Assembly (NCBI GenBank): GCA_963706025.1
Contig: CAVPLM010000005.1
Location: 1,088,001-1,152,000 of the forward strand
Direction: 5' to 3'
DNA from: an uncultured Actinomycetes bacterium
GTDB taxonomy: Bacteria > Actinomycetota > Thermoleophilia > RBG-16-64-13
Length of the DNA: 64,000 nucleotides
Each line of letters begins with the position of its first letter. Positions within the stretch are counted from its first letter, which is position 1. Positions 1,109 to 49,723 of this stretch are shown here, one piece after another. A program made the position numbers and the translations under genes. Below the pieces are notes generated by a model. That model ran no database searches. It worked only from the letters and a program-made list of their open reading frames with translations, and had not been told where the DNA came from.

Positions 1109-1112
1109 TTCG

Positions 1113-3644: not shown

Positions 3645-3648
3645 ACCT

Positions 3649-18268: not shown

Positions 18269-18333
18269 CGGACCTCCTTGAGTTTCTGGAAAAACGACGG
18301 GCATCTTGTCGCCCTGCCTCAGTCGCGGCTCAC

Positions 18334-19285
18334 TCAGTCGCGGCTCATGAACAGCTTGAGTTGCGGCAGCAGCCGGCGATTCTTCTCTTCGAGGACTTCC
18401 GCGCGCGTCTTGCCGCTGTAGTCGTACCAGCCCTTGCCCGACTTGATCCCCAACTCGCCTTTGTTGACCTTCTCCACCAGGATCGGCGACGGTTCGGTCG
18501 CGTTGCTCAGGCCCTTGAACACCCGGCCCGATACCACCATGGCGATGTCGAGACCGATCATGTCCTCCACCTCCATGGGGCCCAGGCAGGCGAACCTGAA
18601 ACCGGTGCTGCTCTTGATGGCGATGTCCAGGTCCTCGGGGGTCACGATCCCTTCGTCGAGCAGGTAGTCGATCTCCCGCTCGATCGCGCCCATGATGCGG
18701 TTCACGATGAAGCCCGGCACCTCTTTGCGCACGAGCACGGTCTTCTTGCCCGAGGCCTCCATGAGGCGCTTGGTCTCCTCGAAAGCGGCATCAGAGGTCT
18801 CGCTGCCCCGGTGGATCTCGACCAAGGGGATGATGTGCCCGGGATTGAAGTAGTGGATGCCGATGATGTTATCGGGATTCGGCATCCCCTCGGCCAGCGA
18901 ATCGACCGTCAGGCTGCCGGTGTTGCTCCCGATGATCACATCCGGGTTGGCCGCCTGGATGAGCGCCCAAGAGAGCCCTCTTGTCGTCGAGGATCTCGCG
19001 GATCGTCTCCACCACGTAGCTGCATCCCTCGACCGCTTGGACCATGTCGGTGGTGACCATGCCCTCGATGCGGTCCATCACTTGGTCGACCGTCTCCTCG
19101 ATCAGGTCGAATTCGATGAACTGCTGGATGTTGTGGCGAAGCTGCTCGAGAGCCCGGGTCAGCGGCTCTTCACGGCGCGCCACGAGCCGTACGTCGAACC
19201 CGTTCTGTGCGAAGGTCTGAGCGATGCCTTCGCCCATCGTCCCCGTGCCCACGATCAGTATCTTCTGCGCGTTTCCTGTACTCAT
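18334..19285 (-). CDS. 3-hydroxyacyl-CoA dehydrogenase family protein (frameshift near 18965)
   Basis: ILIVGTGTMGEGIA, SNTGSL, HYFNPGH, VPGFIVNRI, GELGIKSGKGWYDY. Confidence 0.88.
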
Positions 19286-19304
19286 GCTTGACCTCCGGTC
19301 GCGC

Positions 19305-20160
19305 CTACTTCTTGTGCTGGGGCCGATCCCCCAGGAAGTCGGCAGCGATCTTGTCGAAATTGTGCCGAGTGGCCTGCAGCGCAACGGCGTACATCTCGGC
19401 CAGAACGTGGACGCGTTCATCGTCCTGCAGGGCGCGTTTCCACGGGCGCATCACGAGCTCATGGGTTAGGCGGCGGACGGCCCGGCCCTGACTTCATGAT
19501 GTGGTTGGCGATCTCGTAGGCGCGCGGGATGAGCTGGTCGTGCTCGACGATCTCGTTGATGAGACCCCAGTCCAGGGCGGTCTTGGCGTCGATCTTGGGC
19601 TCCATGTAGGCCATGTAGGCCGCCCGCTTCTGCCCGACACACACGCGGTAGGAGAAGTTCATGCCATCGCCGGGAACGATGTTGTGCGAGAAATGGGCAT
19701 CCGAGAAGTAGAAGTCGGGGACGCAGATGGCGATGTCCGCCATCAGGGCGAATTCGTAGTGCTGTCCGATCCCGTTGATGGCGGCGATGACGGGGACTTC
19801 GATGTCGTTGATGAAGTTCTCGACGAAGTTCATCGTGTCTGGAACGTTGCAGTTGTACTTGAGAGCAAGGTCGGTGGAGTCCTCGACTTCATCGAACGAG
19901 GCGGGGTCGCTCCTCTGGGTAATCCAGTAGGGGTCCGCGCAGGTCAGGATGATGATCTCGTTCTGCTTGTCGTGTCCGATGGCGGTCCACAGTTCGCCGT
20001 AAGCATTCTGGGTCTGGTAGCTCCAAACACAGGCCTCGCCTCTCCAGTGAAGACGACAGAGAAGAATGCCGTCCTCCGTGCGCTCCAGGTGGGCGAAATC
20101 CTTGAACCGTTCGCTGTATTCCTCTAACGTTTCCACGTGTACATAAGGCTGCATTGCCAC
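19305..20160 (-). CDS. Crotonase-fold protein of the 6-oxocamphor hydrolase (beta-diketone hydrolase) type (frameshift near 19485)
   Basis: IEVPVIAAING; DAHFSHNIVPGDG matches the His...IVPGDG pattern of 6-oxocamphor hydrolase; after a one-base correction the C-terminus reads RRLTHELVMRPWKR...QHKK* (stop 19305-19307). Confidence 0.8.
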
Positions 20161-33883: not shown

Positions 33884-34176
33884 TGCTCTCCCCCTTGCTC
33901 TGTCCGTGATACGTCTGATGGTCTCTGTTTCTTGCTCTATTTCACCTTCACAAGCGACAGTGTCCGGTCGTCGCTTGCCTTGACGAGCATGACGGCGCCC
34001 GCCGCCGCGCCCTCATACCCTTATGAACCCGATTTCCCCCTTTCCCCCTTCAGCGACACATTATCACCCGCGTAGCGTCATCAAACCTACCGACGGGACC
34101 CAGCGTCGACGACGGGTGCCACCCTTTGCATGAGTGGACGCATCCATGACAGTCGTGCATGGAACCTCTCCCCCAC

Positions 34177-34322
34177 CTATTGCCCCTCGGCGGCCTTCTG
34201 CGCTTCCCGGTAGGCGGAGATGAAGCGCATCGCGTAGTTGTCGCGCCCCAACACCAGGTCGGCCGAAAGGACGGCAAGGCGCACTTGGGCGGCATCCACG
34301 GTGGGGCAGGTGAGACCGGCCC
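34177..34322 (-). pseudogene. 3'-end remnant of a pterin-binding methyltransferase paralog (inverted copy of 45417-45560)
   Basis: Translates to AGLTCPTVDAAQVRLAVLSADLVLGRDNYAMRFISAYREAQKAAEGQ*, compared with AGLTCPTVDVALVRLAVLSADLVLGRDNYAMSFIAAFREAQKAAEAQ* in the intact gene. Confidence 0.85.
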
Positions 34323-34577
34323 CTTGCGAACTTGGCTACGTGACAACAGGATGCTTCGAGGGTTTGTGGAGGGCATGAGACCCGGTGCGCCAATATCTCG
34401 GCCCTCCATAAACTCCCGCGCTCCCCAGTTGACCACTCGAAAAGGTACAATGCCGGCAATGTGGGGGAAGTGCGAGGGAGATCGTGGGGCTCTTCTAGAG
34501 TCCACGGCGATCCCGATTCGCGTCCGTGCCGATTTCGCCCGAGTCAAGCCACCCGCCAATCGACAAGGAGACTCGCG

Positions 34578-35212
34578 TGACTGAACCGTCATATGTGGAT
34601 GGGACCATCAAGGCGTATCTGGACAGGCTCGCCAGCGCCGAGCCCGAGCCCGGCGGAGGAAGTGTGGCGGCGCTGGTCGCCGCGCTGGGCGCCGCTCTGG
34701 TGACCATGGTCACCGACCTCACTCTAGGCAAGGAGAAGTACGCCGATGTCCAGGAGGCGGTCGCCGAGATCAGGGCCGGCGCGGAGAAGCTGCGCGGCGA
34801 ACTGGAGGAACTGGTCACACTCGACGCAACCGCCTACAGGGCGGTGGCTGTGGCTATGAAGCTCCCCAAAGACACCGATTCCCAGAAAGCGGAGCGCGAC
34901 CGCGCTCTTCAGGCCGCCTTGGCAGGGGCCGCGGAGGTGCCGCTCAGAGTGGCCGAAGCGGCGGCTGAAGTGGCGCGCCTCTCGCTGCCGGCCGCCGAGA
35001 AGGGCAACGTCAACGCCGTTTCAGACGCCGGGGTGGCCGTGCTGCTGGCGGACGCAGCCGCCCAGTCGGCCGCTCTCAACGTGAAGATCAATCTGGCCTG
35101 GATAACAGACGAGGACTTCAAGCGCGAGGCTTGGGCCCGGGTGGGGGCGGCACTCGCGGAGACGGCCCGCCTGCGCGACGTCGTCCTGCCCATGACCTAC
35201 GGCAAGATCTAG
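34578..35212 (+). CDS. fchA: Cyclodeaminase/cyclohydrolase family (methenyl-THF cyclohydrolase FchA-like)
   Basis: LASAEPEPGGGSVAAL, GNVNAVSDAGVA, LNVKINL; AAGGAG RBS before GTG 34578. Confidence 0.85.
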
Positions 35213-35266
35213 TCGGGATGCAGTCGGTCTGCGGTCGGTCGAAAAAGGTACCGGGGGGAGGCATCT

Positions 35267-36235
35267 ATGGCAGCAAAGATCATCGACGGGAAAGCTATCG
35301 CGGCCGAGTTGCGGGAGGAACTCGCCCTTGAATTGGAGGAGCTGAAGGCAGCCGGCCTGCAGCCGGGAATCGCCACCTTGATGGTCGGCGATGATTTCGG
35401 TGCGGGCATGTACCGGGGGGCAGTGGAGAAGTTCTGCGGCGAGATGGGCCTCGGCTATCGCAATGAGGCCCTCCCGACCGACGCCGGCGAAGACGCGGTC
35501 GTTGCGACCGTCCAGGACCTCAACAACGACCCCGCGGTTTCGGGCATCTTGCCGCTGCGGCCCTTCCCGGGCCATATCTCCGACTCCGCGGTAATCAACT
35601 CCATCAGCCCGGGCAAGGACGTGGATTGCTTCCATCCCTTCAACATGGGCCGCCTTACCTTGGGCGAGCCCACCTTCCCGCCTGCGACTCCGGCCGCCTG
35701 CATGGAGTTGCTCGAGCGCTACCTGAGCGGACAGGGACGTGAGGTGGTCGATGCCCTGGAAGGGGCTGAGGTCTGCGTCGTCGGTCACTCGAACACCGTC
35801 GGCAAACCACTGGCCCTACTGCTTCTCAACCGCAACGCCACGACCACGGTGACGCATGTGTTCACCTCGAACAGGGGCAACCTGGCGAAGCACACCCGGC
35901 CGGCCGACTACCTGGTCGTCGCGGCCGGGGTCCCGCACCTGATCGGGCCCGATCTGGTCGGCGAAGGCGCCGTGGTGCTCGATGTGGGGATCAACCGGGT
36001 AGTCGTCTGCCCGGCCTGCAAAACGATCAACCGGGGCAAGAAGAACCCTTGTCGCGCATGCGGAGGCGATCTGGCCGAAGCGGAGACCAAGACCGTGGGA
36101 GACGTAGATTATGACGCCGTCTCCGCCAAGGCCGCCGCCATCACGCCGGTACCTGGCGGCGTAGGAGCAGTAACCAACATGATGCTGGCCCGAAACACGC
36201 TCCGGGCGGCGCGGCTGCAGCGCGATAAGAAGTAG
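35267..36235 (+). CDS. folD: Methylene-THF dehydrogenase (FolD family) with zinc-ribbon insertion
   Basis: KIIDGK, KDVDCFHP, VVGHSNTVGKP, DVGINR, VGDVD, TPVPGGVG. Confidence 0.92.
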   Translation: MAAKIIDGKAIAAELREELALELEELKAAGLQPGIATLMVGDDFGAGMYRGAVEKFCGEMGLGYRNEALPTDAGEDAVVATVQDLNNDPAVSGILPLRPFPGHISDSAVINSISPGKDVDCFHPFNMGRLTLGEPTFPPATPAACMELLERYLSGQGREVVDALEGAEVCVVGHSNTVGKPLALLLLNRNATTTVTHVFTSNRGNLAKHTRPADYLVVAAGVPHLIGPDLVGEGAVVLDVGINRVVVCPACKTINRGKKNPCRACGGDLAEAETKTVGDVDYDAVSAKAAAITPVPGGVGAVTNMMLARNTLRAARLQRDKK

Positions 36236-36341
36236 CGGCGCCTCCTCCAAACCGCAGAAGGTGGGCTTGCCAATTGAACGATAATCTGACATTGTGACCC
36301 GCAACTATCCGGGCAACGGACCCTTCGGTGAGGTAGATCCA

Positions 36342-37226
36342 ATGGTCAAGGAGATTCCGTTAGTCTGGCTGCCGGGGGCAGCCTGTACCGGGTGCAGCGT
36401 CTCACTGCTGAACACCGCGAGTCCAACCATAAAGAACCTGTTGGTCGACCCGGTGATCCCCGGAGTGCACATCAACCTACGCTTTCATCCCACGATCATG
36501 GCCGGGTCGGGGGAGATGGCCATCAAAGCGCTTGAAGACACCATGGCACAGGAGAAGGGCGGCTACGTGCTGGCGGTGGACGGCGCCATCCCGACGGGCG
36601 CGACGGCCGATTACTGTGTAATGGGAGAACGCGACGGCAAGCCGGTGACTATCGAGACCCGTTTCCTTGAACTGGCACAAGATGCCCTCGCCATCCTGGC
36701 GGTTGGCACCTGTGCCTCTTTCGGGGGCATACCCGCCGGCGATCCCAATCCCAGCAACTGCGTGCCGGTAAGGCAGGCGCTGGAACTACATGGCATCCAG
36801 AAGCCGTTGATTAACATCCCCGGCTGTCCGCCCCATCCGGACTGGTTTGTCGGCACGGTGGCCAGCATTCTGCTTGTCGGTTTGCCCAACGCGGAAGACC
36901 TCGATGACAATCTCCGGCCGAAGGCCTTCTACGGCAAGCTCATCCACGAGAATTGTCCGCGCCGGGCTTACTTCGACGAGGGCAAGTTCGCGAAGAAGTT
37001 CGGCGACGAGGGCTGTCTCTACGAGTTGGGGTGCAAGGGCCCGATCACCTACGCGGATTGTCCGACGCGACACTGGAACAGCGGTACGAACTGGGTCATC
37101 GGCGCCGGGTCGCCGTGTCTGGGCTGCACTCAGCCCGAGTTCATGAGCCTGCCCTACTACGAGAAGGTGACCGATGTGCAGCTGCCGGTCATCGGGGCCT
37201 ATTGGCAGAGCGAGGAGGCAGAATAA
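36342..37226 (+). CDS. [NiFe] hydrogenase small subunit, group-1 (Hys-like), no Tat signal
   Basis: CTGCSVS, GTCASFGGIP, PGCPPHP, HENCPRR, GCLYELGCKGP, ADC...PCLGC. Confidence 0.92.
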   Translation: MVKEIPLVWLPGAACTGCSVSLLNTASPTIKNLLVDPVIPGVHINLRFHPTIMAGSGEMAIKALEDTMAQEKGGYVLAVDGAIPTGATADYCVMGERDGKPVTIETRFLELAQDALAILAVGTCASFGGIPAGDPNPSNCVPVRQALELHGIQKPLINIPGCPPHPDWFVGTVASILLVGLPNAEDLDDNLRPKAFYGKLIHENCPRRAYFDEGKFAKKFGDEGCLYELGCKGPITYADCPTRHWNSGTNWVIGAGSPCLGCTQPEFMSLPYYEKVTDVQLPVIGAYWQSEEAE

Positions 37227-38740
37227 TGGCCAAGGTGACCATTGACCCGATCACCAGGATAGAAGGCCATCTCAAGATCGAGACCGAAGTCGAGGGCGGC
37301 GTCGTCAAGGACGCGCGGAGCACCGGCAACCTCTTCCGCGGTATCGAGATCATCCTTCGCGGGCGGGATCCAAGGGATGCGCAGGTCATCGCCCAGAGGA
37401 TCTGCGGGGTCTGCCCGCAATCGCACGGTATGGCGGCCGCGCTCTGTCTGGACAGCGCCTTTGGATTGGGCGACAAGATACCCGACAACGCCCGCCTCAT
37501 GCGCAACCTCATCCAGGGAACGCACGTCGTTCAGGATCACATCCTTCACTTTTACCACCTGGGCGCGCTCGACTACGTCGATGTGACCGATGTGGCCAAG
37601 TACCAGGGCAAGGACTCCGAGCTAAACTCGGTCAAGGATTTCATTGGCCGTGGCGAATTGGGTCCGTTCGTACCCCGATACGAGGGCGACTACAGGCTGC
37701 CGGTCGAAGTCAATCAAATGGCGACCGCTCACTACCTACAGGCCCTGGATATCAGGCGCATGGGGCATGAGGCGGTGGCTATCTTCGGCGGCAAGATACC
37801 TCATTCGGTAGGCATCGTCCCCGGGGGTGTCACCGCCGTTCCGACCGTGGACAAGATCACCGCACTGCTGTGGAAGGTCAAGAAGCTGCAGGACTTCGTC
37901 GACAACGTCTATCTCCCGGACGTACTGGCCATCGCCGGCGTCTATCGCGACTATCTCGAGATCGGCGCAGGCTGCGGGAATCTGCTCTCCTACGGGGGTT
38001 ACGACCTACAGGGGGACAACGCCGATCTCACCCGGAGAAAGAGGCTATTCAAACAGGGGACGGTATCTGCCGATCTCAAACCGCAGGAGCTCGACATAGC
38101 CCGTGTCACCGAAGGCGTCAAGTACTCCTGGTATGAGGACTCTGCCTCTGCCAAGCACCCGTCTCAGGGGGAGACCAAGCCCGCATACGGCAAAGAGGGT
38201 GCCTACTCCTGGCTCAAGGCGCCGCGTTATGGCGGCGAGGTCTACGAGGTCGGCCCGTTGGCCAGGGTGGCCGTTAGCTATGCGTCTGGTGATCCGGTGA
38301 TCACCCAGTTGGTGGATTCGGCTCTGGGAGAGCTCAACGCACCTCCTTCGGCCCTGTTCTCAGTCATGGGACGCCACCTCGCCCGAGCCATCTCGGCCAA
38401 GGTCATCGCCGACAACCTCGTGAAATGGCTCCTGGAGCTGAAACCTGGAGAGCCTACCTATGTCGAGTACGAGATACCCGACGAAAGCATGGGCATGGGT
38501 CTGATCGAAGGCTCGCGCGGCGCTCTCGGGCACTGGATCGAGATCAAGGACAAGAAGATCGCCAACTACCAGGCCGTGGTCCCCACCACCTGGAACGCTT
38601 CGCCGAGGGACGACGACGGCAACCCCGGCCCGATGGAACAGGCGCTGATCGGTACCCCGGTGAAGGACAAGGAGAATCCGTTCGAACTGGTGCGCATCGT
38701 CCGGTCTTTCGACCCCTGCCTCGCTTGTTCGATACATTGA
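37226..38740 (+). CDS. [NiFe] hydrogenase large subunit, group-1a-like, Cys (not Sec) form
   Basis: IDPITRIEGHL; L1 QRICGVCPQSH; L2 RSFDPCLACSIH*; TAATG overlap with the small subunit. Confidence 0.93.
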   Translation: MAKVTIDPITRIEGHLKIETEVEGGVVKDARSTGNLFRGIEIILRGRDPRDAQVIAQRICGVCPQSHGMAAALCLDSAFGLGDKIPDNARLMRNLIQGTHVVQDHILHFYHLGALDYVDVTDVAKYQGKDSELNSVKDFIGRGELGPFVPRYEGDYRLPVEVNQMATAHYLQALDIRRMGHEAVAIFGGKIPHSVGIVPGGVTAVPTVDKITALLWKVKKLQDFVDNVYLPDVLAIAGVYRDYLEIGAGCGNLLSYGGYDLQGDNADLTRRKRLFKQGTVSADLKPQELDIARVTEGVKYSWYEDSASAKHPSQGETKPAYGKEGAYSWLKAPRYGGEVYEVGPLARVAVSYASGDPVITQLVDSALGELNAPPSALFSVMGRHLARAISAKVIADNLVKWLLELKPGEPTYVEYEIPDESMGMGLIEGSRGALGHWIEIKDKKIANYQAVVPTTWNASPRDDDGNPGPMEQALIGTPVKDKENPFELVRIVRSFDPCLACSIH

Positions 38741-38760
38741 TCCTGGCCAAATGAGGAGAG

Positions 38761-39453
38761 ATGTTACTATCTAAGCAGAAACCATTTGAAGAAATCCTGG
38801 GCTTTCTGGAGGGAGAGAGCAGGGTCTTCCTTCTCGGCTGCGATGGTTGCGCCCAGGCGTCCGGCACCGGCGGTCCTGTCCAGGTGGCCGAGATGAAATC
38901 CAAGTTGGAGGATGCCGGCAAGACCATAACCGGCACCGATGTGGTCGGTTTCCTCTGCGAAAAGGCGCTGGTGAAGTCGCGCCTGGCACCCAAGACCAAC
39001 GCGATCATGGGATCGGATTCGATCCTGGTGATGACCTGCGGCGTCGGCATCCAAGCGGTCGCGGCCTCTGTGAACAAGCTGTGCCATCCCGGCTGCGACA
39101 CGCAGAACCTCGGCGGAAGCCGGGGCGAATGGCAGGGCAGCGAGCGTTGTAGGGAATGCGCCGAGTGCGTCCTCGAGTCCACCGGTGGTATATGCCCTCT
39201 GACATCGTGCAGCAAAGGCCTACTAAGCGGGCAGTGCGGGGGGGCGTCGGCCGGGAAATGCGAGCTCAGTCCGGAAAAGGACTGTGGTTGGGAGCTCATC
39301 TACCATCGGCTGAAGGCTCTGGACCAACTGGACAAACTCAAGAAGCTCGCTCCGCCGAAGAGCTGGAGCAAGATGTCGCCCGACGTCCACATCCTGGCGA
39401 CATCTCACTATGCCCTGGAAAACCCAGCTCAAGAGGAGGCAACGACGGAATGA
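38761..39453 (+). CDS. metV: MetV (methylene-THF reductase FeS/Zn subunit)
   Basis: GCDGCA, LCE, CGVGIQ, CRECAEC, GICPLTSCSKGLLSGQCGG...C...CGW. Confidence 0.88.
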   Translation: MLLSKQKPFEEILGFLEGESRVFLLGCDGCAQASGTGGPVQVAEMKSKLEDAGKTITGTDVVGFLCEKALVKSRLAPKTNAIMGSDSILVMTCGVGIQAVAASVNKLCHPGCDTQNLGGSRGEWQGSERCRECAECVLESTGGICPLTSCSKGLLSGQCGGASAGKCELSPEKDCGWELIYHRLKALDQLDKLKKLAPPKSWSKMSPDVHILATSHYALENPAQEEATTE

Positions 39454-40326
39454 GCCTCAAGTCGGAACTGGAATCAGGGAGATTCGCTATTACGGCTGAG
39501 ATCGGTCCCCTGAAGGGAACCGACATCACGGAGAACATCGAGGTGGCCGAGATGCTACGCGGGCGTGTGACCGCCGCCAACGTCACCGACCAGCAGAGCT
39601 CGGTGATGAGATTGGGGTCAATGGTCACCTGCCACCTGCTGTCTGATCACGGTCTCGAACCGGTCCTGCAGATGACCTGCCGCGATACCAACCGGATCGC
39701 CTTACAATCGGACCTTCTGGGTGCCTGGGTCATGGGCACCGAGAACGTCCTTGCTTTGACCGGCGACTTCCCTGCTCTCGGCGATCATCCCGACGCCGTG
39801 CCGGTCTACGATCTCGACTCGGTGCAGTTGCTGTCGGTGATCAGCCGGCTCAACGAGGGATTCGATATGGTCGGTAACCCACTGACCGGCAAGACCGATT
39901 TCTTTGCCGGCGCTGTGGTCGATCCGGGCGCCGACACCGAAGCCAGCCTTGACCTCCAACTGTTCAAGATGGAGAAGAAGATCGAGGCTGGAGCGAAGTT
40001 CTTCCAGACTCAGGCGGTGTTCGAGCCTGACAAGTTCGCCAAGTTCATGAAGCGGGTGAAGGGGTTCGGGGTTCCGGTCATGGCCGGCGTTATCCCCTTG
40101 AAATCGGTAGGTATGGCCCGATTCATGAACAAGAACGTGGCCGGCGTGTGCGTGCCCAAAGAGACGATCCAGAGGTGTGCCGCGGCCGAAGACAAGACTC
40201 AGGCGGGCTGTGGATCTCGTCGCTGAACTAATGAGAGACCTCAAGGATCTCTGTCAGGGTCTGCATGTGATGCCCATCGGCTGGGAGAAGAAGGTTCCCC
40301 AGATGCTGGATGCGGCCGGACTGTAG
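39450..40326 (+). CDS. metF: Methylene-THF reductase MetF (frameshift near 40200-40225)
   Basis: TAEIGP.KG, NVTD, QMTCRDTNRIALQSDLLGA, LTGD, KKIEAGAKFFQTQ, GLHVMPIGWE; ATGA overlap with metV. Confidence 0.9.
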
Positions 40327-40444
40327 GGCTGTCGGCATCACCCCTGGGACGGCCGGTCGGGGACGTGTCGCGCCGTCCAGACCATGGAGGCCTTGAGCCG
40401 TCGTATCCGCTTCCTGCGAGACAGCTGCGTCCGCGACGGCGTAA

Positions 40445-41889
<1,445 letters not shown>

Positions 41890-41917
41890 ACATCACGACA
41901 CGAGGAAAGGAGCCGCG

Positions 41918-42549
41918 ATGCACAACTAGTCGAAGCCATGGCCAACATGAAGGAGAAGGAAGCCCTTCAGATCGTCGACGAGCTGCTGGCCAAGGGCGAG
42001 GACCCCAACAAGATCCTGGATCTCTCCTCCGAGGCCATGCAGGTGGTGGGCACCCGCTACCAGGAAGGCACCTACTTCCTGCCCGAGCTCATCATGAGCG
42101 GCGAGATGCTGCGTAAGATCGGCGAGATCCTCAAACCCCTGCTGGCCGCCAAGACCGACCAGACCAAGAAGCTGGGCATCGTGGTCCTCGGCACCGTGCG
42201 GGGCGACATCCACGACATCGGCAAAGACATCGTGGGCTTCATGCTGGAAGTGAACGGCTTTGAGGTGCACGACCTCGGCATCGACCAGCCCGAAGAGGCC
42301 TTCGTGAAAGCCGTGAAGGAGCACAAGCCCCAGGTGCTGGCCCTCTCCGGCTTCCTCTCGGTGGCCTTCGACTCCATGAAGTCCACCATCGAGCAGGTGG
42401 AAGCCGCCGGGCTGCGCAAGGACCTCAAGATCATCATCGGCGGCGGGCAGATGGACGACACCGTGCGCAAGTACACCGGGGCCGACGCCTACGGCGACGA
42501 CGCCATGGCTGCCGTGGCCTTCGCCAAGGAGACGGTGGGGGTGGCGTGA
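41918..42549 (+). CDS. Cobalamin-binding corrinoid protein (MtaC/MttC/MtvC-like)
   Basis: GTVRGDIHDIGKDIV B12 motif, SGFL, IIGGG; true start probably ATG 41918 after AAGGAG, with an indel before 41938. Confidence 0.9.
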
Positions 42550-43885
42550 TGGCCGAGAAAGCTGGGAGGACATGACCCCCGCCGAGAGGCGAGCCTGGCG
42601 CATCGAGCAAGTGGCGCAATCCGGCGTCGCCGTTCGCGAGCCCGCAGGCCGAGGCCGACTACAAGGCGCGGGTGGACCGGCTCATAGCGGCCATCAACCT
42701 GGAGAAGCCCGACCGGGTGCCGGTGAGTCTCAACACCGGCTGGTGGCCGGCCAGAGCGCCGGCATGACTCCCTACGAAGCCATGAGCGACCCGGCAAGGC
42801 CGCGCAGGCCTGGCTGGACTTCAACGTCGAAGTTCCAGCTGGACGTCATGGTCGACCCCGCTGCACAACACAGTCCCGGCCTCGATGTTCGAGACGATCG
42901 ACTACAGGCTGTACTCCTGGCCGGGCCACGGCGTCGCCAAGGACGCGGGCTACCAGTACAACGAGAAGGAGTGGATGCTCCCCGAGGAGTACGACCACCT
43001 GATCTCGGACCCGACCGACTACATGCTCCGCACGTATCTTCCCCGCACGGTGGGCGCGTTCGCCGGCTTCGGCGGACTGTCCTCGCTCTTCGACTTCATC
43101 GAGCTGCCCTTCGTGGCCGGCCAGGTCGGCGGCTGGGGCATCGCCGGAGATGGTCGGCGGGTCTGGAGAGGCTGACCGCGGCGGCACGAGATGGTCGAAG
43201 CGTGGGCCAGGGCCGACCTTCCCGGAGATCGGCGAGATCATGGCGCTGGGCTTCCCGGCCTACTGGGGTGCGGCGACCAAGGCGCCGTTCGACATCCTGG
43301 GCGACACACTGCGCGGCACTCGGGGGTCATCGTCGACCTCTACCGCCGGCCCGAGAAGGTGCTCGCCGCCTGCGAGCGCCTGGTGCAGGTGGCCATCGAC
43401 TTCGTAACTCAAGCGCCCGGGATCCCGCCGCACGCCCGTCATCTTCATGCCGCTGCACAAGGGCGCGGACGGCTTCATGAGCGACGAGCAGTTCCACACG
43501 TTCTACTGGCCGAGCCTGAAGGCCCTGCTCTGGGCCTCATCGAGGAGGGCTTCATACCCTTCCTGTTCGCCGAGGGGCGCTACGACTCGCGGCTCGAGAC
43601 CATCATGGACCTGCCCAAGGGCGAGACCGTCTGGCTGTTCGACCAGACCGACATGGCCCGGGCCAAGGAGACCATCGGCCAGGTGGCCTGCATCCAGGGG
43701 AACGTGCCCCTGTCGCTCATGCATGCGGCACCGCCGAGGAGGCGGCCGAGCTACGCCGCAAGCTCATCGACGTCGCCGGCAAGGGGGGCGGCTTCATCCT
43801 CGACGTCGGCGCAGTGGCCGACGGGGGCAAGGAGGAGAACCTGCGCGCCATGATCAAGACGGCCAAGGAGTACGGCGTCTACTAG
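42549..43885 (+). CDS. Uroporphyrinogen-decarboxylase-fold methyltransferase (corrinoid MT-like), multiple frameshifts
   Basis: EKPDRVPV, KAPFDILGDTLRG, FMPLHKGADGFMSDEQF..FYWP, CIQGNVP, GGFIL...ENLRAMI..KEYGVY*. Confidence 0.75.
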
Positions 43886-43914
43886 GCAGTCAGAGGACGG
43901 GAAGAGGCGACAGT

Positions 43915-44667
43915 TTGGCCGAGAGCGGTGATCCTGGCCTGCGAGATGATCGAGGACGAGGTGCGGCTGGCGCTGGAGGCGGTGCCGCCGAGCGAGCGGC
44001 CGCCGGTGGTCTGGGTGGAGAGCGGGCTGCACGAGCGGCCGGAGCGGCTGCAGGCGGCGCTGCAGGGGCTGATCGAATGTCGACGGGGGCCGCGGCGGCA
44101 CGGCCGTAGCGTGCTCGGTGCGGCCCGGCAGGGGACCGGCCGCGGAGCGCCGGGAGCAGGTACTGGTAGGCCCGGTGGAGGAGGTGCTGCTGGCCCTGGG
44201 GTTCTGCGGCAGCGCGCTCAAGGGTCTGGTCGCGCGGCATCTGCGCATGGTGTTCCCCCGGGTGGACGACTGCGTCTCGCTGCTGCTGAACCGGGGTTGC
44301 GCACGGGAGGAGATCCCGGGACCCGCGCCACTACTACCTGACCCGCGGATGGTTCAACCACGAGAGCACCCTGCAAGGGAGGCTTCGAGGAGTGGGACGA
44401 GCGGTTCGGCCCGGAGCGAGCGGCGCGCTGCGAAAGACCATGTTCGCGGGCTACGAGCGGGTAACCTGATCGATACCGGCCTACGACGTGGACGAGTGTC
44501 TCGAGCAGAGCCGGGGCGGACGCCGACGATCTGGAGCTGGACCACGGCGTCGTGCAGGGTTCGGTGCAATTGCTGGAGGACTTTCAGGGGGGAGAGGGAC
44601 GGCGAGATAGTGGTGGTGCCGCCGGGGAGCCGATAGGATTCACGCACTTGTTCCTGTCGAAGAGTGA
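43915..44667 (+). CDS. DUF1638-domain protein (corrinoid-system accessory), multiple frameshifts, ends approximate
   Basis: ILACEMIEDE, ESGLHERPERLQ, GFCG..L.GL, PRVDDCVSLLL, YYLTRGW, LIDTG. Confidence 0.7.
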
Positions 44668-44704
44668 GACCGGAAAAACCGTACGGCGAAGATGGAGGAA
44701 TGCA

Positions 44705-45560
44705 GTGGAGACCCGAGTAGCCAGCGCGACGAGCGAAGTCATCATCGGTGGGGGCCGGCCCACGGTGCTCATAGGCGAGCGCATCAACCCCACCGGCAAG
44801 AAGCGCCTGGCCGAGGCTCTGCGGGCCGGCGACCTGAGCGTCGTCCGCGAGGAAGCCCTGGCCCAGGTGGCGGCCGGCGCCGACATCCTGGACGTCAACG
44901 TGGGCGCCACCGGCGTCGACGAGGTGGACGATGCTGCCCCTGGCGGTACAAGGCCGTGGGAGGTGGTGGACGTGCCTCTCTGCATCGACAGCCGCAAGAT
45001 CGAGGCCCTTGCGGCGGCGCTGGACGTCTGTCCGGGACGGCCGATAGTCAACTCGGTCACCGGCGAGGAGGCCTCCCTGGAGACCGTGCTGCCCCTGGTC
45101 AAAGAGCAGGGGCTGCCGGTCATAGGCCTGACCCTGGACGAGAAGGGCATCCCCGCGGACGCCGAAGCGCGCGTGGCCATCGCCCACCGCATCGTGGAGC
45201 GGGCCGAGGCGATGGGCATCCCGCGTGAGGACGTGATCATCGACTGCCTGACCCTGTCGCTGGGCGCGAACGTCAAGGCCGGCCTGGCCACGCTGGAGGC
45301 GACCCGGCGCGTGCGGGACGAGCTGGGCGTCAACCAGACCCAGGGGGCAGCAACATCTCCCACGGCCTGCCCAACCGGCCGGTGCTAACGGGGCCTATCT
45401 GGCCCTGGCCATCGAGGCAGGTCTGACCTGCCCCACGGTGGACGTGGCCCTGGTGCGCCTGGCCGTCCTTTCGGCCGACCTGGTGCTGGGCCGCGACAAC
45501 TACGCCATGAGCTTCATCGCGGCCTTCCGCGAAGCGCAGAAGGCGGCCGAAGCCCAGTGA
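44705..45560 (+). CDS. Pterin-binding (DHPS-fold) methyl-THF:corrinoid methyltransferase (AcsE/MtvA/MetH-pterin-domain-like), frameshifted near 3' end
   Basis: IGERINPTGKK, GADILDVNVG, PLCIDS, IVNSVTGE, IIDCL. Confidence 0.85.
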
Positions 45561-45585
45561 ACGCGGAGGCGAGAAAGGGGTAGAC

Positions 45586-48500
45586 ATGGCCGACCTGCTT
45601 CGTCGCGAGATAATCGGGGAGAACGGTCCGCCGGTAGGCATCTTCATCGATGGGCGTCATCTGCAGGTCGACCGACATGTGTCGATCCTGGACGCCGCCC
45701 AAGCGCATGGGATCTACATACCTACGCTCTGCCACGATCCCCGCTTGGAGCCCGTCGGTCGCTGCAAGCTGTGCCTGGTGGAGGTCGCCGGGGACGGGCT
45801 GGTCTATGCGTGCCAGACCCCGGTGGCCGAGGCCATGGAAGTGATCACCCTGAGTCCACAGATCTCCGATGCGCGTCGGTCCCGGCTCAACGAGTTGCTC
45901 TCCAACCATAACGCCTATTGCGAACCGCCCTGCCACTACGCCTGTCCGGCGGGCATCGACATACCCGCCTACCTGGGAGCGATCGCCGAGGGAGACGACG
46001 CTGAAGCCGTCAGGATCGTCAAGCAGCGACTGCCGCTGCCCCGCATCATCGGCCGGGTCTGTCCCCGGCCGTGCGAGAGCGCCTGTCGCCGCACCCAGGT
46101 CGACGGCGAACCGGTAGCCATCTGTCAGCTGAAGCGCTTCGCCGCCGACCGCGACTGCGCCGGCGGCGCCGGCGAGCGACGAGGCCGCGCCTGAAGAAGA
46201 CGTCGCCCCGGCCAGCGGCAAGAAGGTCGCCGTCATCGGCAGTGGCCCCTCGGGTCTGACCGCCGCCTACTTCCTAGCTCGGGCCGGTCACCAGGTGACG
46301 ATCTTCGAAGCCCATTCGCAGCCCGGCGGCATGATGCTCACCGGGATCCCGCCTTATCGTCTGCCCCGATACGTCATCGCCGAGGAGGTCGACGATATCC
46401 TCAGACTTGGCGTGGAACTGAGGCTTGGTTGCCGGCTCGGCGAGCACGTCACCATCGACAGCCTCGAGGCCGACGGCTACGACGCCATCTATCTTGCCAT
46501 CGGCGCCCAGTGCGGCTCCACCGGTGGCATCCCCGGCGCCGAGGGCGGACAGGGCATCTACCCGGCCGTCGACTTCCTCCGAGAGAGCAATGCCCGGGCG
46601 TGGAAGGAGCCCCTCGGCCGGACGCTGATCGTCGGCGGCGGTTTCACGGCCGTCGACGCGGCCCGATCGGCAGTGCGTCTTGGGGCCGGCGAAGTGACTT
46701 TGGTCTACCGGCGGACCCGCGAAGAGATGCCCGCGACCACGGACGAGGTGGACGAGGCGGAGGAGGAAGGCGTTAACCTGCTGTTGCTCACAGCCCCGGT
46801 CTCCGTGATCCGGGAAGACGGGAGGGTCACCGGTGCGGTCTGTCAGAAGATGGAACTGGGCGAGCCGGACGAAAGCGGCAGGCGACGGCCGGAGCCGGTG
46901 GCGGACTCCGAATTCACCGTCGCAGCGGATACGGTGATCCTGGCGATCGGCCAGGAAGTCGACGACCGCGACCTGGGTGGCTCCTGCACCTTCACCTCCT
47001 GGGGCACCATCGAGGCGGACAAGAGCACTCTGGCGACCAGCAAGGAAGGAGTCTTCGCCGGGGGAGACTGCGAGACCGGGCCCGCGACGGTGGTGGAAGC
47101 CATAGCTGCGGGGCGCCGGGCCGCCATCGCCATCGATGCCTACGTCTCGGGCAGAGACCCGAAGGCGGCCTGCGCCGCGCCCGGCACGCGCCTCGAGCGA
47201 CACCAGCCGAAGTTCTTCGATATCGGTGCCAAGCCTCTTTCTGACGACAAACGCAACCACATCCCCGTGCTCCCTGTCCGGCCCGCCAGAACTTCCACGA
47301 GGTGGAGTTGGACTTCGACGAGGCTGCGGCCAGGAGGGAAGCCGCCCGCTGCATGCAATGCACCTGCCACGCCGCCTCTGCCTGCGAGCTGCAGCGCCTG
47401 GCTATCCGCTACGGCGCCGGTACCACGGAATTCAAGGGTGACCAGGGCAGTTCGAGCTGTTCGACGGGTCGCCCATCCTTCAGCTCGACCGCAAGCGCTG
47501 CATCAAGTGCCACAGCTGCGTCCGCATCTGCGCCGAGGCCGAGCAGTACGGCGTCTACCAGGTGGATGAAGCCGAGTACCCAGAGCTCAAGGGCCTTACC
47601 TACCGGGATTCCGGCTGCGTCTCCTGCGGCCAGTGCCTCGATGTCTGCCCCACGGGCGCACTGGTCAACGCCCAGCTCAAGGGCGCGCACGAATGGGAGA
47701 TAAGCCGGGTGCGCACCACGTGTCCGCTCTGCGGCACGGGCTGCAATTTCGACCTGAACGTCAAAGACGGCAGGGTCGTCGGGGTCACGGCCGCTGCGGA
47801 CGCGCCGGTCAACGGCAGCGCCTTGTGCGTCAAGGGCCGGTTCCACACAGACATGATCCACAGCCCAGAGCGACTCACCACCCCGCTCGTAAGAAGGAAT
47901 GGCGTACTCGAGAGGGCCACCTGGGACGAGGCTCTCGACCTCGTCGCCGCCCGCTTCCAGGAGATACGGGATCGTGATGGAGCGGACGCTTTCGCCGCCC
48001 TCAGCTCGGCCCGTTGCACCAATGAAGACAACTGGCTGATGCAGAAGTTCGTCCGGGTGGTGATGCGCACCAACAACCTGGACCACTGCGCGCGAACCTG
48101 ACACGCTCCCACTGTGGCCGGTCTGGCCGCATCGTTTGGAAGCGCCGCGATGACGAACTCCATCAGTGAGGTCGAGTTCTACGACGCCCTATTCATCATC
48201 GGGTCCAACACCACCGAAGCGCATCCCATAATCGGAAGCAAGATGAAGCGCGCCGCCCGGCGCGGGGCTACGTTGATAGTGGCCGATCCGCGGCACATCG
48301 AATTGGTCGACTACGCCCAGCTGTGGCTGCAGCTCATCCCGGGTACCGACGCGGCTCTCATCAACGGCATGATGAACATCATCATCAACGAGCGCTGGGC
48401 CGACTGGGAGTTCATCGCCAAGCGCTGCGAGAACTACGACGACCTGTGGGAGGTCGTGCAGAAGTACACCCCGGACGTGGTCAGCGAGATCACCGGCGTC

Positions 48501-49723
48501 CCCGAGGACAAGCTCTACGCAGCCGCCGAGCTCTATGCCCATACCCGCCGGGCGGGCATCTTCTACACCCTCGGCATCACCGAGCACACCACCGGTACCG
48601 CCAACGTCATGAACCTGGCCAATCTCGCCATGGTCACCGGCCATGTGGGAGTGGAGCATGCTGGAGTCAATCCACTGCGCGGCCAGAACAACGTGCAGGG
48701 AGCCTGCGACATGGGCGCTCTGCCCAACGTGTTCTCGGACTACCGGCCCGTCACCAGGCCGAGGATGTCGCCGTCTTCGAGAAGGAATGGGGGGCGAGAC
48801 TCAGCACCACGACGGGGCTGCGCACCCCGGAGATGTTCGACGCCATCATCGCCGGCGATCTCAAGGCGATGTACATCATGGGCGAGGACCCGATCCTCAC
48901 CGACGCCGACGCCAATCATGTCCGCAAGGCCATCTCCAGCCTTGAATTCCTGGTGGTCCAGGACATCTTCCTGACGGAGACGGCCAAGTACGCCGACGTG
49001 GTGCTACCGGCCGCCTGTTACGCCGAGAAGGACGGCACCTTCACCAACACCGAGCGCCGGGTGCAGAGGGTGCGGAAGGCCGTCGAGCCTCCGGGTGAGG
49101 CCCGGGCCGACTGGCAGATCATCTGCGACCTCTCCCACCGTATGGGCTACCAGATGGGGTGTGTCTCCCCGGCGGATATCTTCGAAGAGATCCGGACCTT
49201 GACCCCCACCTACGCCGGCATGACCTACGACCGGGTCGATGCCTGCGGTCTGCAGTGGCCATGCCCCGACATCGATCATCCGGGCACTCCCTACCTGCAT
49301 GAGGACACGTTCCCCCGGGGGCGTGGGCGCCTTTTGGGCATCGAATACGAAGCTCCCGCCGAGCTCACCAACGAGGACTACCCTTACCTGCTGACCACCG
49401 GGCGCATGCTCTACCAGTACAACATCTCCACCAGGCAGTCCGCGACCCTCGACTCGCTGGCGCCTTACGAGCTGGCCGAGATCAACCCGGTGGACGCCGC
49501 CTCGATCGGAGTGTCCGAGGGAGAAGAGATGCGGGTCACTTCGCGCCGCGGCTCGGTAGTCACCCGGGTGACGGTCACCGACCGCGTGCCCCCCGGGATC
49601 CTGTTCATGACCTTCCACTTCCGGGAGACGGCGGTCAACGAGCTGACCAATTCCGCATACGACCCCATCTCCAACACAGCGGAGTACAAAGTCTGCGCGG
49701 TCAGGATCGAACCGGCACGATGA
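45586..49723 (+). CDS. fdhF: Selenocysteine formate dehydrogenase alpha subunit fused to N-terminal 2Fe-2S and GltD/NfnB-like flavoprotein domains (several frameshifts; Sec TGA at 48099)
   Basis: IPTLCH..GRCKLC; [48 protein letters not shown]; CIKCHSC, CVSCGQC; [10 protein letters not shown]; [17 protein letters not shown]; [10 protein letters not shown]; EYKVCAV. Confidence 0.8.
48099..48135 (+). promoter_or_regulatory. In-frame UGA (Sec) and bacterial SECIS hairpin
   Basis: TGA at 48099-48101 at the FdhF Mo/W-ligand position (CARxUH); hairpin TGTGGCC-GGTCT-GGCCGCA at 48113-48131. Confidence 0.85.

What the first reader, a model, noticed from the sequence alone, without database searches (positions are those of the whole stretch)
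36342..40326. Cytoplasmic [NiFe] hydrogenase inserted directly before metV-metF: candidate H2-linked methylene-THF reductase
Seen: fchA-folD-hydS-hydL-metV-metF-lpdA. hydS/hydL overlap (TAATG), metV starts 20 bp after hydL, and metV/metF overlap (ATGA). There is no Tat signal, cytochrome b, diaphorase, MvhD/Hdr or RnfC2 gene in the window. Established: fchA-folD-metV-metF-lpdA is the clostridial Wood-Ljungdahl gene order, and known MetVF enzymes are wired to RnfC2 (NADH), to HdrABC-MvhD, or stand alone. Inference: a different MTHFR type in which a two-subunit group-1 hydrogenase exchanges electrons with MetVF, either H2-driven methylene-THF reduction or methyl oxidation to H2 under low (syntrophic) H2.
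Basis: partly seen in the sequence, partly recalled or inferred. Interest (0 to 1): 0.82.

Follow-up and report, generated by a model that had tools for sequence, protein, structure and literature searches.

The report
Signal-less hydrogenase wired to folate reductase
A hydrogenase that has lost its export signal sits in one tight operon with the folate-reducing enzyme MetVF, and the same four-gene unit recurs in several bacterial phyla, so it is probably an uncharacterised enzyme that links hydrogen gas directly to one-carbon metabolism.

Summary
The order fchA-folD-hydS-hydL-metV-metF-lpdA lies at the stated coordinates with the stated overlaps, and HydS has no Tat signal.

The adjacency is not unique. 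Six of 41 genomes in the relatives search (the window's own included) carry the same hydrogenase. In 79 of 80 loci holding the closest HydL relatives (66-89% identity), metV follows hydL; the 80th contig ends first. By record titles these loci come from Actinomycetota, Dehalococcoidia/Chloroflexota, Syntrophaceae and other deltaproteobacterial labels, and one Acidobacteriota.

Only these four genes are conserved. The next-closest hydrogenases (58-60% identity, 8 of 8 loci inspected) carry a Tat signal and a membrane anchor and have no metVF nearby. HydL and MetV+MetF trees recover the same clades.

Best reading: a cytoplasmic H2-linked methylene-THF reductase, a fifth wiring of MetVF. No complex could be modelled, and no biochemistry exists.

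One 2024 MAG paper already notes the adjacency in a sentence.

Caveats for this genome:
- No HypD, HypF, ACS or Fhs was found (92% complete).
- A 29-kb island that carries hyp and acs genes in a sister genome is cleanly missing.
- metF has a one-base frameshift, which is probably an assembly error.

The parts
34526..35212 (+). fchA (methenyl-THF cyclohydrolase). The true start may lie about 25 codons downstream.
   Evidence: PF04961 at 3e-60 and NF045657. It lies upstream of the module in Actinomycetota relatives only.
35267..36235 (+). folD (methylene-THF dehydrogenase/cyclohydrolase)
   Evidence: PF00763 + PF02882. dN/dS is 0.09 against L026.
36342..37226 (+). hydS: [NiFe] hydrogenase small subunit, 294 aa, with no Tat signal and no C-terminal membrane anchor
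   Evidence: PF01058 + PF14720. The best PDB match is 1cc1_S at 1e-74, aligned from residue 3. Eleven cluster ligands are invariant in 54 sequences. The alignment with Tat-bearing sisters shows that both ends are trimmed.
37226..38740 (+). hydL: [NiFe] hydrogenase large subunit, 504 aa. It has Cys60/Cys63 and Cys498/Cys501 and ends at the processing His, so there is no C-terminal extension.
   Evidence: PF00374 at 549 bits and NF033181 at 709 bits. PDB group-1 periplasmic enzymes match at 1e-135, while Mvh matches only residues 1-119. Translation.
38761..39453 (+). metV: Fe-S/zinc subunit of MetVF, 230 aa
   Evidence: PF12225 at 2e-30. Twelve Cys are invariant in 53 sequences. It is the only PF12225 hit in the genome.
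39450..40326 (+). metF: methylene-THF reductase, read in two frames because of one extra base near 40208
   Evidence: PF02219. Frames. DNA alignment with 7 relatives. Contigs of runs X1 and X2 lack the extra base. It is the only PF02219 hit in the genome.
40445..41929 (+). LpdA-like flavoprotein disulfide reductase, broken by two frame changes in this assembly
   Evidence: Pyr_redox_2 pieces and TIGR01350. Frames 2, 3, 2 against intact orthologs. End of the gene. It follows metF in Actinomycetota loci only.
41938..42549 (+). Corrinoid (B12-binding) protein, the first gene of a methyltransferase set that runs to about 45388
   Evidence: PF02310 + PF02607. Weak URO-D match, DUF1638 and Pterin_bind ORFs follow. 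Orthologs follow lpdA in L021, L024, L027 and L030.
45586..49723 (+). NAD(P)H-type Fe-S flavoprotein fused or adjacent to a selenocysteine formate dehydrogenase (in-frame TGA at 48099-48101), with 4 frame changes
   Evidence: Fer2_4, Fer4_20, Pyr_redox_2, Molybdop_Fe4S4, Molybdopterin and Molydop_binding. Frames. The TGA is conserved in L028.

Best explanation
hydS-hydL-metV-metF encodes one cytoplasmic enzyme system, an H2:methylene-tetrahydrofolate oxidoreductase.

Proposed electron path: H2 is split at the [NiFe] site of HydL. Electrons pass along the three Fe-S clusters of HydS, which has lost both its Tat signal and its membrane anchor and so stays in the cytoplasm. They then reach the Fe-S clusters of MetV and the flavin of MetF, which reduces methylene-THF to methyl-THF.

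It would be a fifth wiring of the MetVF core, beside MetF alone, MetVF, RnfC2-MetVF and HdrCBA-MvhD-MetVF. It would be a folate-branch counterpart of the hydrogen-dependent CO2 reductase.

The step is reversible in principle. I take H2 uptake as the main direction in hosts that hold the module inside acs clusters.

Shown: the gene anatomy, the metal-ligand conservation, the cross-phylum conservation and specificity of the linkage, and purifying selection.

Inferred: physical contact, the electron path and the direction.
For: 1. Anatomy. Overlapping or closely spaced genes leave no room for a separate promoter or terminator.

2. Conservation. In 79 of 80 loci with HydL at 66-89% identity, metV lies directly downstream on the same strand. 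The exception, L104, ends 127 nt after hydL. By record titles the loci are 64 Dehalococcoidia/Chloroflexota, 9 Syntrophaceae or other deltaproteobacterial labels, 6 Actinomycetota and 1 Acidobacteriota.

3. Only the four genes are conserved: hydL in 77 loci, metV in 75, hydS in 73 and metF in 67 of 80. The next most common neighbour family occurs in 18 loci.

4. Spacing is tight across phyla. hydS and hydL overlap by 1 nt in most loci, and hydL to metV is 8-61 nt in most. In 11 loci a HycI-family maturation protease gene sits between hydL and metV, so metVF lies inside a hydrogenase operon.

5. Natural control. The next hydrogenase clade (HydL 58-60% identical; 8 of 8 loci L114-L121) has an RR Tat signal, a C-terminal hydrophobic anchor and no metV or metF in 15-16 kb. 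L122 (62%) has no signal and has metV.

6. The HydL tree and the MetV+MetF tree recover the same major clades, including odd pairings such as L078+L082 and L102 with six Chloroflexota rows.

7. All [NiFe] and Fe-S ligands are kept. dN/dS is 0.06-0.12 for hydS, hydL, metV and metF against L026.

8. Context. In Dehalococcoidia loci the common neighbour families include acsB (10 loci), acsC/D (12), a pterin-binding protein (14) and DUF3786 (14).

9. Thermodynamics (my calculation from E0' of -414 and -200 mV, as quoted in PMC9586279). The standard free energy is -41 kJ/mol. At 1 Pa H2 it is only about -13 kJ/mol, so direct coupling wastes little energy where H2 is scarce.

10. H2-dependent methylene-THF reduction has a biochemical precedent, though through a membrane chain, in Sporomusa ovata (PMC9430772, passages).
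Against: - There is no purification or assay anywhere in the seven literature searches.
- No RNA contig bridges hydL and metV. The one RNA run holds only short pieces.
- In this genome HypD, zf-HYPF and HycI were not found at 92.3% completeness. The 29-kb island that carries hyp genes in sister genome G001 is cleanly absent at the syntenic site. Without Hyp proteins a [NiFe] site cannot be built (established knowledge).
- G002 and G041 also gave no HypD hit.
- metF is frameshifted in this assembly.
- Five of the six module-bearing genomes of the family (the window's own counted) hold further metV copies. The module is therefore an alternative MTHFR and not the only one.
- A direct H2-to-folate step conserves no energy, which is odd for energy-limited anaerobes unless H2 is very low.
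Confidence: 0.58

Rival explanations
1. The complex is the same but works in the opposite physiological direction. Methyl-THF, derived from methyl groups taken off substrates by the corrinoid methyltransferases encoded downstream, is oxidised by MetVF. The electrons leave as H2 through HydSL, and the reaction is pulled by H2-consuming partners.
For: - No ACS or Fhs was found in this genome, so no reductive acetyl-CoA pathway is visible.
- The genes after lpdA encode a corrinoid protein, a weak URO-D-like match, DUF1638 and pterin-binding methyltransferase parts, and a Sec-FDH.
- Pyrogallol-hydroxytransferase-like enzymes lie at 1113-6003, which fits a life on methoxylated aromatics.
- At 1 Pa H2 the proton couple (about -266 mV, my calculation) is a no worse acceptor than NAD+.
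- Hosts include Syntrophaceae.
Against: - H2 formation from a -200 mV couple needs H2 near or below 1 Pa, or a very high methyl/methylene ratio.
- No hyp genes were found in this genome.
- In Dehalococcoidia loci acs genes are among the common neighbours of the module, which says nothing about direction.
Confidence: 0.2
2. There is co-regulation without contact. HydSL reduces a soluble ferredoxin or flavodoxin, and MetVF draws on that pool. The genes travel together only because the two activities are needed together.
For: MetVF-type enzymes accept reduced ferredoxin in vitro (PMC9430772, introduction passage; PMC8515935, title and abstract start only). No docking element could be shown here.
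Against: - Linkage over about 35% sequence divergence and several phyla, with overlapping start and stop codons and congruent trees, is stronger than is usual for enzymes that merely share a carrier.
- Reduction of ferredoxin by H2 is uphill at low H2.
- No ferredoxin gene is conserved in the module.
Confidence: 0.12
3. The complex is electron-bifurcating. It uses 2 H2 to reduce methylene-THF (downhill) and ferredoxin (uphill) together, as Mvh-Hdr does with heterodisulfide.
For: The 214 mV drop under standard conditions would pay for ferredoxin reduction. A [NiFe] hydrogenase docked to a reductase is the Mvh-Hdr layout. How methylene-THF reduction is coupled to energy conservation is called an enigma in PMC9430772 (abstract and passages).
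Against: - The conserved four-gene unit contains no HdrA-, NfnB- or EtfAB-like bifurcating flavoprotein.
- EtfAB lies upstream in only 13 of 80 loci.
- LpdA follows metF only in Actinomycetota.
- That MetVF alone does not bifurcate is recalled knowledge, not tested here.
Confidence: 0.07
4. In this particular genome the module is an inactive relic, or an apo-hydrogenase. The strain lost the island with hyp, acs and a second hydrogenase, and the module is starting to decay.
For: - No HypD, HypF, HycI, ACS or Fhs was found.
- A 29-kb segment is cleanly deleted relative to G001.
- There are frame breaks in metF, lpdA and genes downstream.
Against: - Frame breaks also hit unrelated genes, namely a split 3HCDH and a truncated SDR. 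Sister assembly G001 is also full of them. This points to assembly error.
- Contigs from two other runs lack the extra metF base.
- dN/dS is 0.06-0.12 and the terminal branch is short (0.053, against 0.096 for L026).
- The genome is 92% complete with 7% contamination, so hyp genes may be unbinned.
- This metF is the only MTHFR found in the genome.
Confidence: 0.25

Closest known systems
HdrCBA-MvhD-MetVF methylene-THF reductase (Moorella thermoacetica / Sporomusa ovata type)
   Same: It has a MetV + MetF core with an Fe-S electron-input module encoded in the same operon (PMC9430772 passages; PMC5736913 passages).
   Different: Here the input module is a complete two-subunit [NiFe] hydrogenase. 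There is no HdrA/B/C or MvhD in the window; the genome's two MvhD hits lie on another contig. The donor would be H2 itself and not NADH or an unknown carrier.
RnfC2-MetVF (Acetobacterium woodii type) and plain MetVF (Clostridium ljungdahlii type)
   Same: They share the MetVF core, and one extra subunit decides the electron donor (PMC9430772 introduction passage).
   Different: No RnfC-like gene was found in the ORFs scanned. The module adds two proteins of about 800 residues in total.
Hydrogen-dependent CO2 reductase (HDCR)
   Same: The concept is the same: a hydrogenase joined through Fe-S subunits to a Wood-Ljungdahl enzyme, so that H2 is used without a soluble carrier (PMC7005907, abstract start only).
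   Different: HDCR uses an [FeFe] hydrogenase and a formate dehydrogenase. This module uses a [NiFe] group-1-like enzyme and MetVF. There is no homology in the catalytic partners, so this is an analogy and not membership.
Tat-exported, membrane-anchored group-1 uptake hydrogenases of Dehalococcoidia (loci L114-L121) and periplasmic [NiFe]/[NiFeSe] enzymes of Desulfovibrio (PDB 1cc1, 1yrq and others)
   Same: They are the closest sequence relatives: 58-60% HydL identity for L114-L121, and E-values of 1e-135 and 1e-74 to the PDB chains. They have the same metal ligands.
   Different: The module's HydS lacks the RR signal and the C-terminal anchor. In the window's subclade HydL also lacks the C-terminal extension, and the fourth Cys of the medial cluster is Val. 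That the corresponding Cys in [NiFeSe] enzymes makes the cluster 4Fe-4S is recalled knowledge.
'HysAB next to MetVF' in Ca. Bipolaricaulia MAGs (PMC11287216)
   Same: It is the same adjacency and the same suggestion, that the hydrogenase may provide electrons for MTHF reduction (passages read).
   Different: That report is one sentence on two OTUs. In the passages read it gives no mention of a missing signal peptide, no survey and no test. I could not check whether those genes belong to this clade, because the supplementary tables are closed.
Membrane H2-to-methylene-THF chain of Sporomusa ovata
   Same: It has the same overall reaction, H2-dependent methyl-THF formation (PMC9430772 passages).
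   Different: In S. ovata a periplasmic cytochrome-b-type hydrogenase and the membrane are involved and a proton gradient forms. Here everything is predicted to be cytoplasmic and soluble.

Membership tests
[NiFe] hydrogenase, group 1 (periplasmic uptake type) | Large subunit of family PF00374 with N-terminal RxCGxC and C-terminal DPCxxC nickel-iron ligands | tested here: met
   PF00374 at 549 bits and NF033181 at 709 bits, above the 600-bit cut-off. RICGVC at residues 58-63 and DPCLAC at 496-501.
[NiFe] hydrogenase, group 1 (periplasmic uptake type) | Small subunit with ligands for proximal, medial and distal Fe-S clusters, including a His ligand on the distal cluster | tested here: met
   C15, C18, C124, C162, H202, C205, C225, C231, C240, C259 and C262 are invariant in 54 sequences and aligned to 1cc1_S. 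The assignment of ligands to individual clusters is recalled.
[NiFe] hydrogenase, group 1 (periplasmic uptake type) | Twin-arginine signal peptide on the small subunit | tested here: not met
   There is no RR motif and no room for one upstream, either in the window or in any of the loci with a complete 5' end. The NF045520 match starts at profile position 39.
[NiFe] hydrogenase, group 1 (periplasmic uptake type) | Membrane anchor, cytochrome b or cytochrome c partner | tested here: not met
   HydS ends about 20 residues after the last conserved block, without a hydrophobic tail, unlike L114-L121. No cytochrome family was found in the window ORFs scanned.
[NiFe] hydrogenase, group 1 (periplasmic uptake type) | C-terminal extension of the large subunit removed by a HycI/HybD-type protease | tested here: not met
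   The window HydL ends at His504, and there is no PF01750 hit in the genome. The extension is present in 61 of 80 related loci and absent in 19.
[NiFe] hydrogenase (any group) | Hyp maturation genes in the genome | tested here: not met
   There are no HypD or zf-HYPF hits in G000 at 92.3% completeness. Most island ORFs of G001, including the HypD ORF, have no homolog in G000. HypD is present in 4 of 5 family relatives with the module and in 4 of 5 other hosts.
[NiFe] hydrogenase group 3c (Mvh type) | Full-length similarity to MvhA/MvhG and an adjacent mvhD | tested here: not met
   Mvh chains match only HydL residues 1-119, at 7.5e-31. VhuG gives 23 bits against a cut-off of 450. There is no FlpD hit in the window.
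MetVF-type methylene-THF reductase | MetF (PF02219) plus MetV (PF12225) encoded side by side | tested here: met
   with the ATGA overlap. metF needs one frame change in this assembly.
MetVF-type methylene-THF reductase | Fe-S/zinc cysteines of MetV | tested here: met
   Twelve Cys are invariant in 53 sequences. Two [4Fe4S] clusters and zinc are what PMC9430772 predicts for MetV.
Type III / type IV MTHFR (RnfC2- or HdrCBA-MvhD-linked) | rnfC2 or hdrCBA-mvhD next to metVF | tested here: not met
   None was found in the window or among the conserved neighbours.
H2:methylene-THF oxidoreductase complex (proposed) | Physical association and H2-dependent methyl-THF formation | not testable with these tools
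This needs biochemistry.

The most novel reading that the evidence does not exclude
HydSL-MetVF is a self-contained electron-bifurcating (and, in reverse, confurcating) hydrogenase-reductase. It would use the large drop from H2 to methylene-THF to make reduced ferredoxin. That would give Dehalococcoidia, Syntrophaceae and these Actinomycetota an energy-saving step at the point of the Wood-Ljungdahl pathway whose coupling has been debated for decades.
Probability: 0.07. Interest if true: 0.92.

Novelty: new variant of a known kind. Interest (0 to 1): 0.7.

Why it matters
The electron donor of methylene-THF reductase is the least settled step of the Wood-Ljungdahl pathway. PMC9430772 lists four enzyme classes. 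None of them uses H2 directly.

A cytoplasmic hydrogenase hard-wired to MetVF would be a fifth class. The hydrogenase gave hits at E ≤ 1e-60 in 48 of 301 sampled genomes of one Dehalococcoidia-containing class. Some of those hits are the Tat-bearing sister clade.

If it is real, it changes energy budgets drawn for uncultured subsurface acetogens and syntrophs. It gives a clear recombinant target of four genes. It also shows how a periplasmic respiratory hydrogenase was turned into a soluble partner, by losing its signal peptide and membrane anchor and, in one subclade, its C-terminal processing.

Tried and rejected
**Group 3c (Mvh) reading.** I expected an Mvh-type enzyme, because such enzymes accompany Hdr-MetVF. 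The PDB and NCBIfam matches rejected this.

**Complex model.** Complex prediction on HydS + MetV was not available, so there is no result of any kind.

**Promoter and terminator scan, 34000-42000.** It found 0 promoter-like sites and 4 terminator-like sites, against 4.5 expected. None lies between the genes in the sense direction, so the scan is uninformative.

**Reads and contigs.**
- All runs are kept as contigs.
- RNA run X20 holds a 202-nt contig identical to hydS and one contig across the hydS/hydL junction, but none across hydL/metV. One 48-nt piece reaches only 17 nt over the metV/metF junction.
- This is not evidence for or against co-transcription.
- Habitat labels of runs with small shares are not used.

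**Apparent fusions.** HydS-HydL in L105 and MetV-MetF in L042 came from my ORF-extension script. Both junctions contain a TAG stop, so I rejected them.

**Literature.** Seven searches were run. Apart from PMC11287216 they turned up no description of a hydrogenase-MetVF enzyme. PMC5736913, PMC9586279, PMC6305446 and PMC10689502 were read as passages only and do not mention it. Subscription-only papers and supplementary tables could not be seen, and Table S4 of PMC11287216 may list the genes.

**Not tested.**
- HydDB class.
- [FeFe] and group-4 hydrogenases in G000.
- Whether the Bipolaricaulia genes fall in this clade.

Full report
**What is in the window**

Translations and profile scans place seven genes on the + strand:
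- fchA 34526-35212
- folD 35267-36235
- hydS 36342-37226
- hydL 37226-38740
- metV 38761-39453
- metF from 39450
- an LpdA-like gene from 40445

hydS and hydL overlap as TAATG. Twenty nucleotides with a Shine-Dalgarno-like AGGAGA separate hydL from metV. metV and metF overlap as ATGA.

HydL (504 aa) matches PF00374 over its full length and NCBIfam NF033181 at 709 bits. Its best solved relatives are periplasmic [NiFe] and [NiFeSe] enzymes (E about 1e-135). Mvh-type chains match only the first 119 residues. It is therefore group-1-like and not the Mvh type that usually accompanies Hdr-MetVF.

HydS (294 aa) aligns with mature small subunits from its third residue. The only upstream in-frame start adds 16 residues without twin arginines. 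HydL ends at the histidine where other enzymes are cleaved.

The interval 39450-40326 is not a multiple of three. The last 31 codons of metF lie in another frame, because the window has one extra base near 40208 compared with seven relatives.

Contigs from two other public runs lack that base: one contig in X1 and two in X2.

There are further frame breaks compared with orthologs from other assemblies (L027-L030):
- two in lpdA
- at least five in the methyltransferase and formate-dehydrogenase genes up to 49.7 kb

Unrelated genes at 17.5-19.4 kb are also split or truncated. The sister assembly G001 reads hydS in three frames. I therefore take the breaks as assembly errors, though this is not proven.

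**Is the adjacency more than chance?**

- Among 40 relatives, five carry HydL at 85-92% identity, drawn from the window's genus and three other genera of the family. All five show folD-hydS-hydL-metV-metF-lpdA.
- A scan of one genome per species returned 190 relatives and kept the best 80, at 66-89% identity.
- In 79 of those 80 loci metV follows hydL on the same strand. L104 ends 127 nt after hydL.
- By record title, 64 loci are Dehalococcoidia/Chloroflexota, 9 are Syntrophaceae or other deltaproteobacterial labels, 6 are Actinomycetota and 1 is Acidobacteriota.
- Clustering all flanking ORFs shows that only four families are shared: hydL in 77 loci, metV in 75, hydS in 73 and metF in 67. The shortfalls lie at contig ends. 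The next family occurs in 18 loci.
- Flanks differ by lineage. Actinomycetota have fchA-folD upstream and lpdA downstream. In Dehalococcoidia loci the common neighbour families are either etfB, etfA and a CCG/Fe-S membrane protein, or acsB, acsC/D and a pterin-binding protein, with DUF3786 after metF.
- In 11 loci a HycI-family protease gene lies between hydL and metV.

**A natural control**

In a sample of 301 genomes from the class that holds G045, 48 have a HydL match at E ≤ 1e-60. I fetched 11 of those places, with these results:
- Eight places (HydL 58-60% identical) have a clear RR signal (for example LTRRHFVEL), a hydrophobic C-terminal anchor on HydS, and no metV or metF within 15-16 kb.
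- One place (L122, 62% identical) has no signal, and metV follows.
- One fragment was too short to judge.
- One was a more distant Tat-bearing enzyme.

So loss of the export signal and anchor goes together with gain of metVF.

**Co-inheritance**

A HydL tree (53 rows) and a MetV+MetF tree (52 rows) recover the same major clades:
- the Actinomycetota clade
- the sub-groups of Dehalococcoidia that lack the HydL extension
- a 14-row group joining deltaproteobacterial and Chloroflexota rows
- the pair L078+L082

In the HydL tree the window's clade sits with Dehalococcoidia rows that lack the C-terminal extension (88% support). This suggests one loss of the extension and a transfer between phyla. 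The root is unknown.

**Is the protein set intact?**

- The four [NiFe] cysteines are present.
- Eleven Fe-S ligands of HydS are invariant in 54 sequences.
- Twelve cysteines of MetV are invariant in 53 sequences.
- In the window's subclade the residue that is Cys in [NiFeSe] enzymes and in the Tat-bearing sisters (NWC) is Val (NWV). This suggests a 3Fe-4S medial cluster (the cluster assignment is recalled).
- dN/dS against the same-genus copy L026 is 0.06-0.12 for folD, hydS, hydL, metV and metF, at dS of about 0.63-0.74.

**This genome in particular**

- G000 (3.66 Mb, 30 contigs, 92.3% complete, 7.3% contamination) has one PF00374 hit, one metV and one metF, all in this operon.
- It has two MvhD domains on another contig.
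- It gave no hit for HypD, zf-HYPF, HycI, CdhC (ACS) or FTHFS.
- In sister genome G001 the genes for HypD, a second hydrogenase and ACS lie in a 29-kb stretch (C9:531012-560386). The flanks of that stretch are contiguous in G000 contig C10.
- The reductive acetyl-CoA pathway is therefore not visible here, and the hydrogenase may not be matured, unless those genes are unbinned.
- Of the five family relatives with the module, all five have ACS and four have HypD.
- Of five other hosts, four have HypD.
- Those five relatives also hold other metV copies, so the module is normally one of several MTHFRs.

**Mechanism**

The simplest reading is a soluble complex in which H2-derived electrons run from HydL through HydS and MetV to the MetF flavin.

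With E0' of -414 mV for H2 and -200 mV for methylene-THF (values quoted in PMC9586279), the standard free energy is -41 kJ/mol. At 1 Pa H2 it is about -13 kJ/mol (my calculation). In low-H2 sediments a direct link therefore loses little energy, and it is the one Wood-Ljungdahl step that such H2 can still drive.

The same numbers allow the reverse reaction at H2 below 1 Pa. That would suit this genome's downstream corrinoid, methyltransferase and FDH genes. I cannot decide the direction.

**Compared with what is known**

- PMC9430772 (passages) lists four MTHFR classes and shows H2-dependent methylene-THF reduction in Sporomusa membranes through a periplasmic hydrogenase.
- PMC11287216 (passages) notes in one sentence that a group 1a hydrogenase lies beside MetVF in Ca. 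Bipolaricaulia MAGs and may supply electrons.
- Seven searches found nothing further.

The finding is thus a new variant of a known kind. The MetVF core and the group-1 hydrogenase are both known. Their conserved union, the cytoplasmic conversion of the hydrogenase and the spread across phyla are, as far as I could see, undescribed.

**Verdict**

- Interest 0.7.

Noticed in passing
window 40205-40210 (metF); 40445-41929 (lpdA); 42572-49723; 17511-19420: There are many frame breaks compared with orthologs: metF 1, lpdA 2, a 444-aa methyltransferase-like gene 1, an 830-aa Fe-S flavoprotein 3 and FdhA 1. A 3-hydroxyacyl-CoA dehydrogenase is split and an SDR is truncated. Sister assembly G001 shows the same kind of breaks, so this is probably an error-prone assembly and not gene decay.
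   Followed up: partly
G000:C10 about 78160-78243, compared with G001:C9:531012-560386: A 29-kb segment present in the same-genus genome G001 is cleanly absent from the window's genome. In G001 it carries HypD, a large HypF-sized ORF, a second [NiFe] hydrogenase and acetyl-CoA synthase.
   Followed up: yes
window 48099-48101: There is an in-frame TGA in the formate dehydrogenase, within the sequence [16 protein letters not shown]. The same TGA occurs at the same place in L028, so the enzyme is very likely a selenocysteine FdhA. Selenocysteine-insertion genes were not searched for.
   Followed up: partly
window 278-6003 (- strand): Two molybdopterin enzymes lie here, one with a pyrogallol-hydroxytransferase-like first domain, together with a Fer4_11 subunit. 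Nearby are a lactonase, a TRAP transporter, BKACE, 3HCDH and an enoyl-CoA hydratase. This hints at anaerobic breakdown of trihydroxybenzenes or methoxylated aromatics, which would supply methyl groups to the corrinoid system downstream of metF.
   Followed up: no
L026-L105 (HydL C-termini): The 15-residue C-terminal extension of HydL is present in 61 loci and absent in 19 of the 80. All 6 Actinomycetota loci lack it, as does the window. Where it is absent, hydL to metV is 21-153 nt.
   Followed up: yes
L085, L086, L088, L090, L093, L095, L096; also L036, L040, L043, L089: A second, divergent metV-metF pair (metV 37-45% identical) lies a few kb from the module in deltaproteobacterial loci and some Dehalococcoidia loci. 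Two MetVF types are therefore kept side by side.
   Followed up: no
L061 / G041: This Dehalococcoidia genome gave no HypD hit. Its module looks loosened: there are 299 nt between hydL and metV, and the metF C-terminal part was not matched. It may be a decaying copy.
   Followed up: no
L047 836-5075 and 12-17 further loci: In many Dehalococcoidia loci, etfB, a ferredoxin-fused etfA and a membrane CCG/4Fe-4S protein (13, 13 and 18 loci) are recurring neighbours of the module; in L047 they lie just upstream of hydS. They could be a link to the membrane or a second electron route. They are not conserved outside that group.
   Followed up: no
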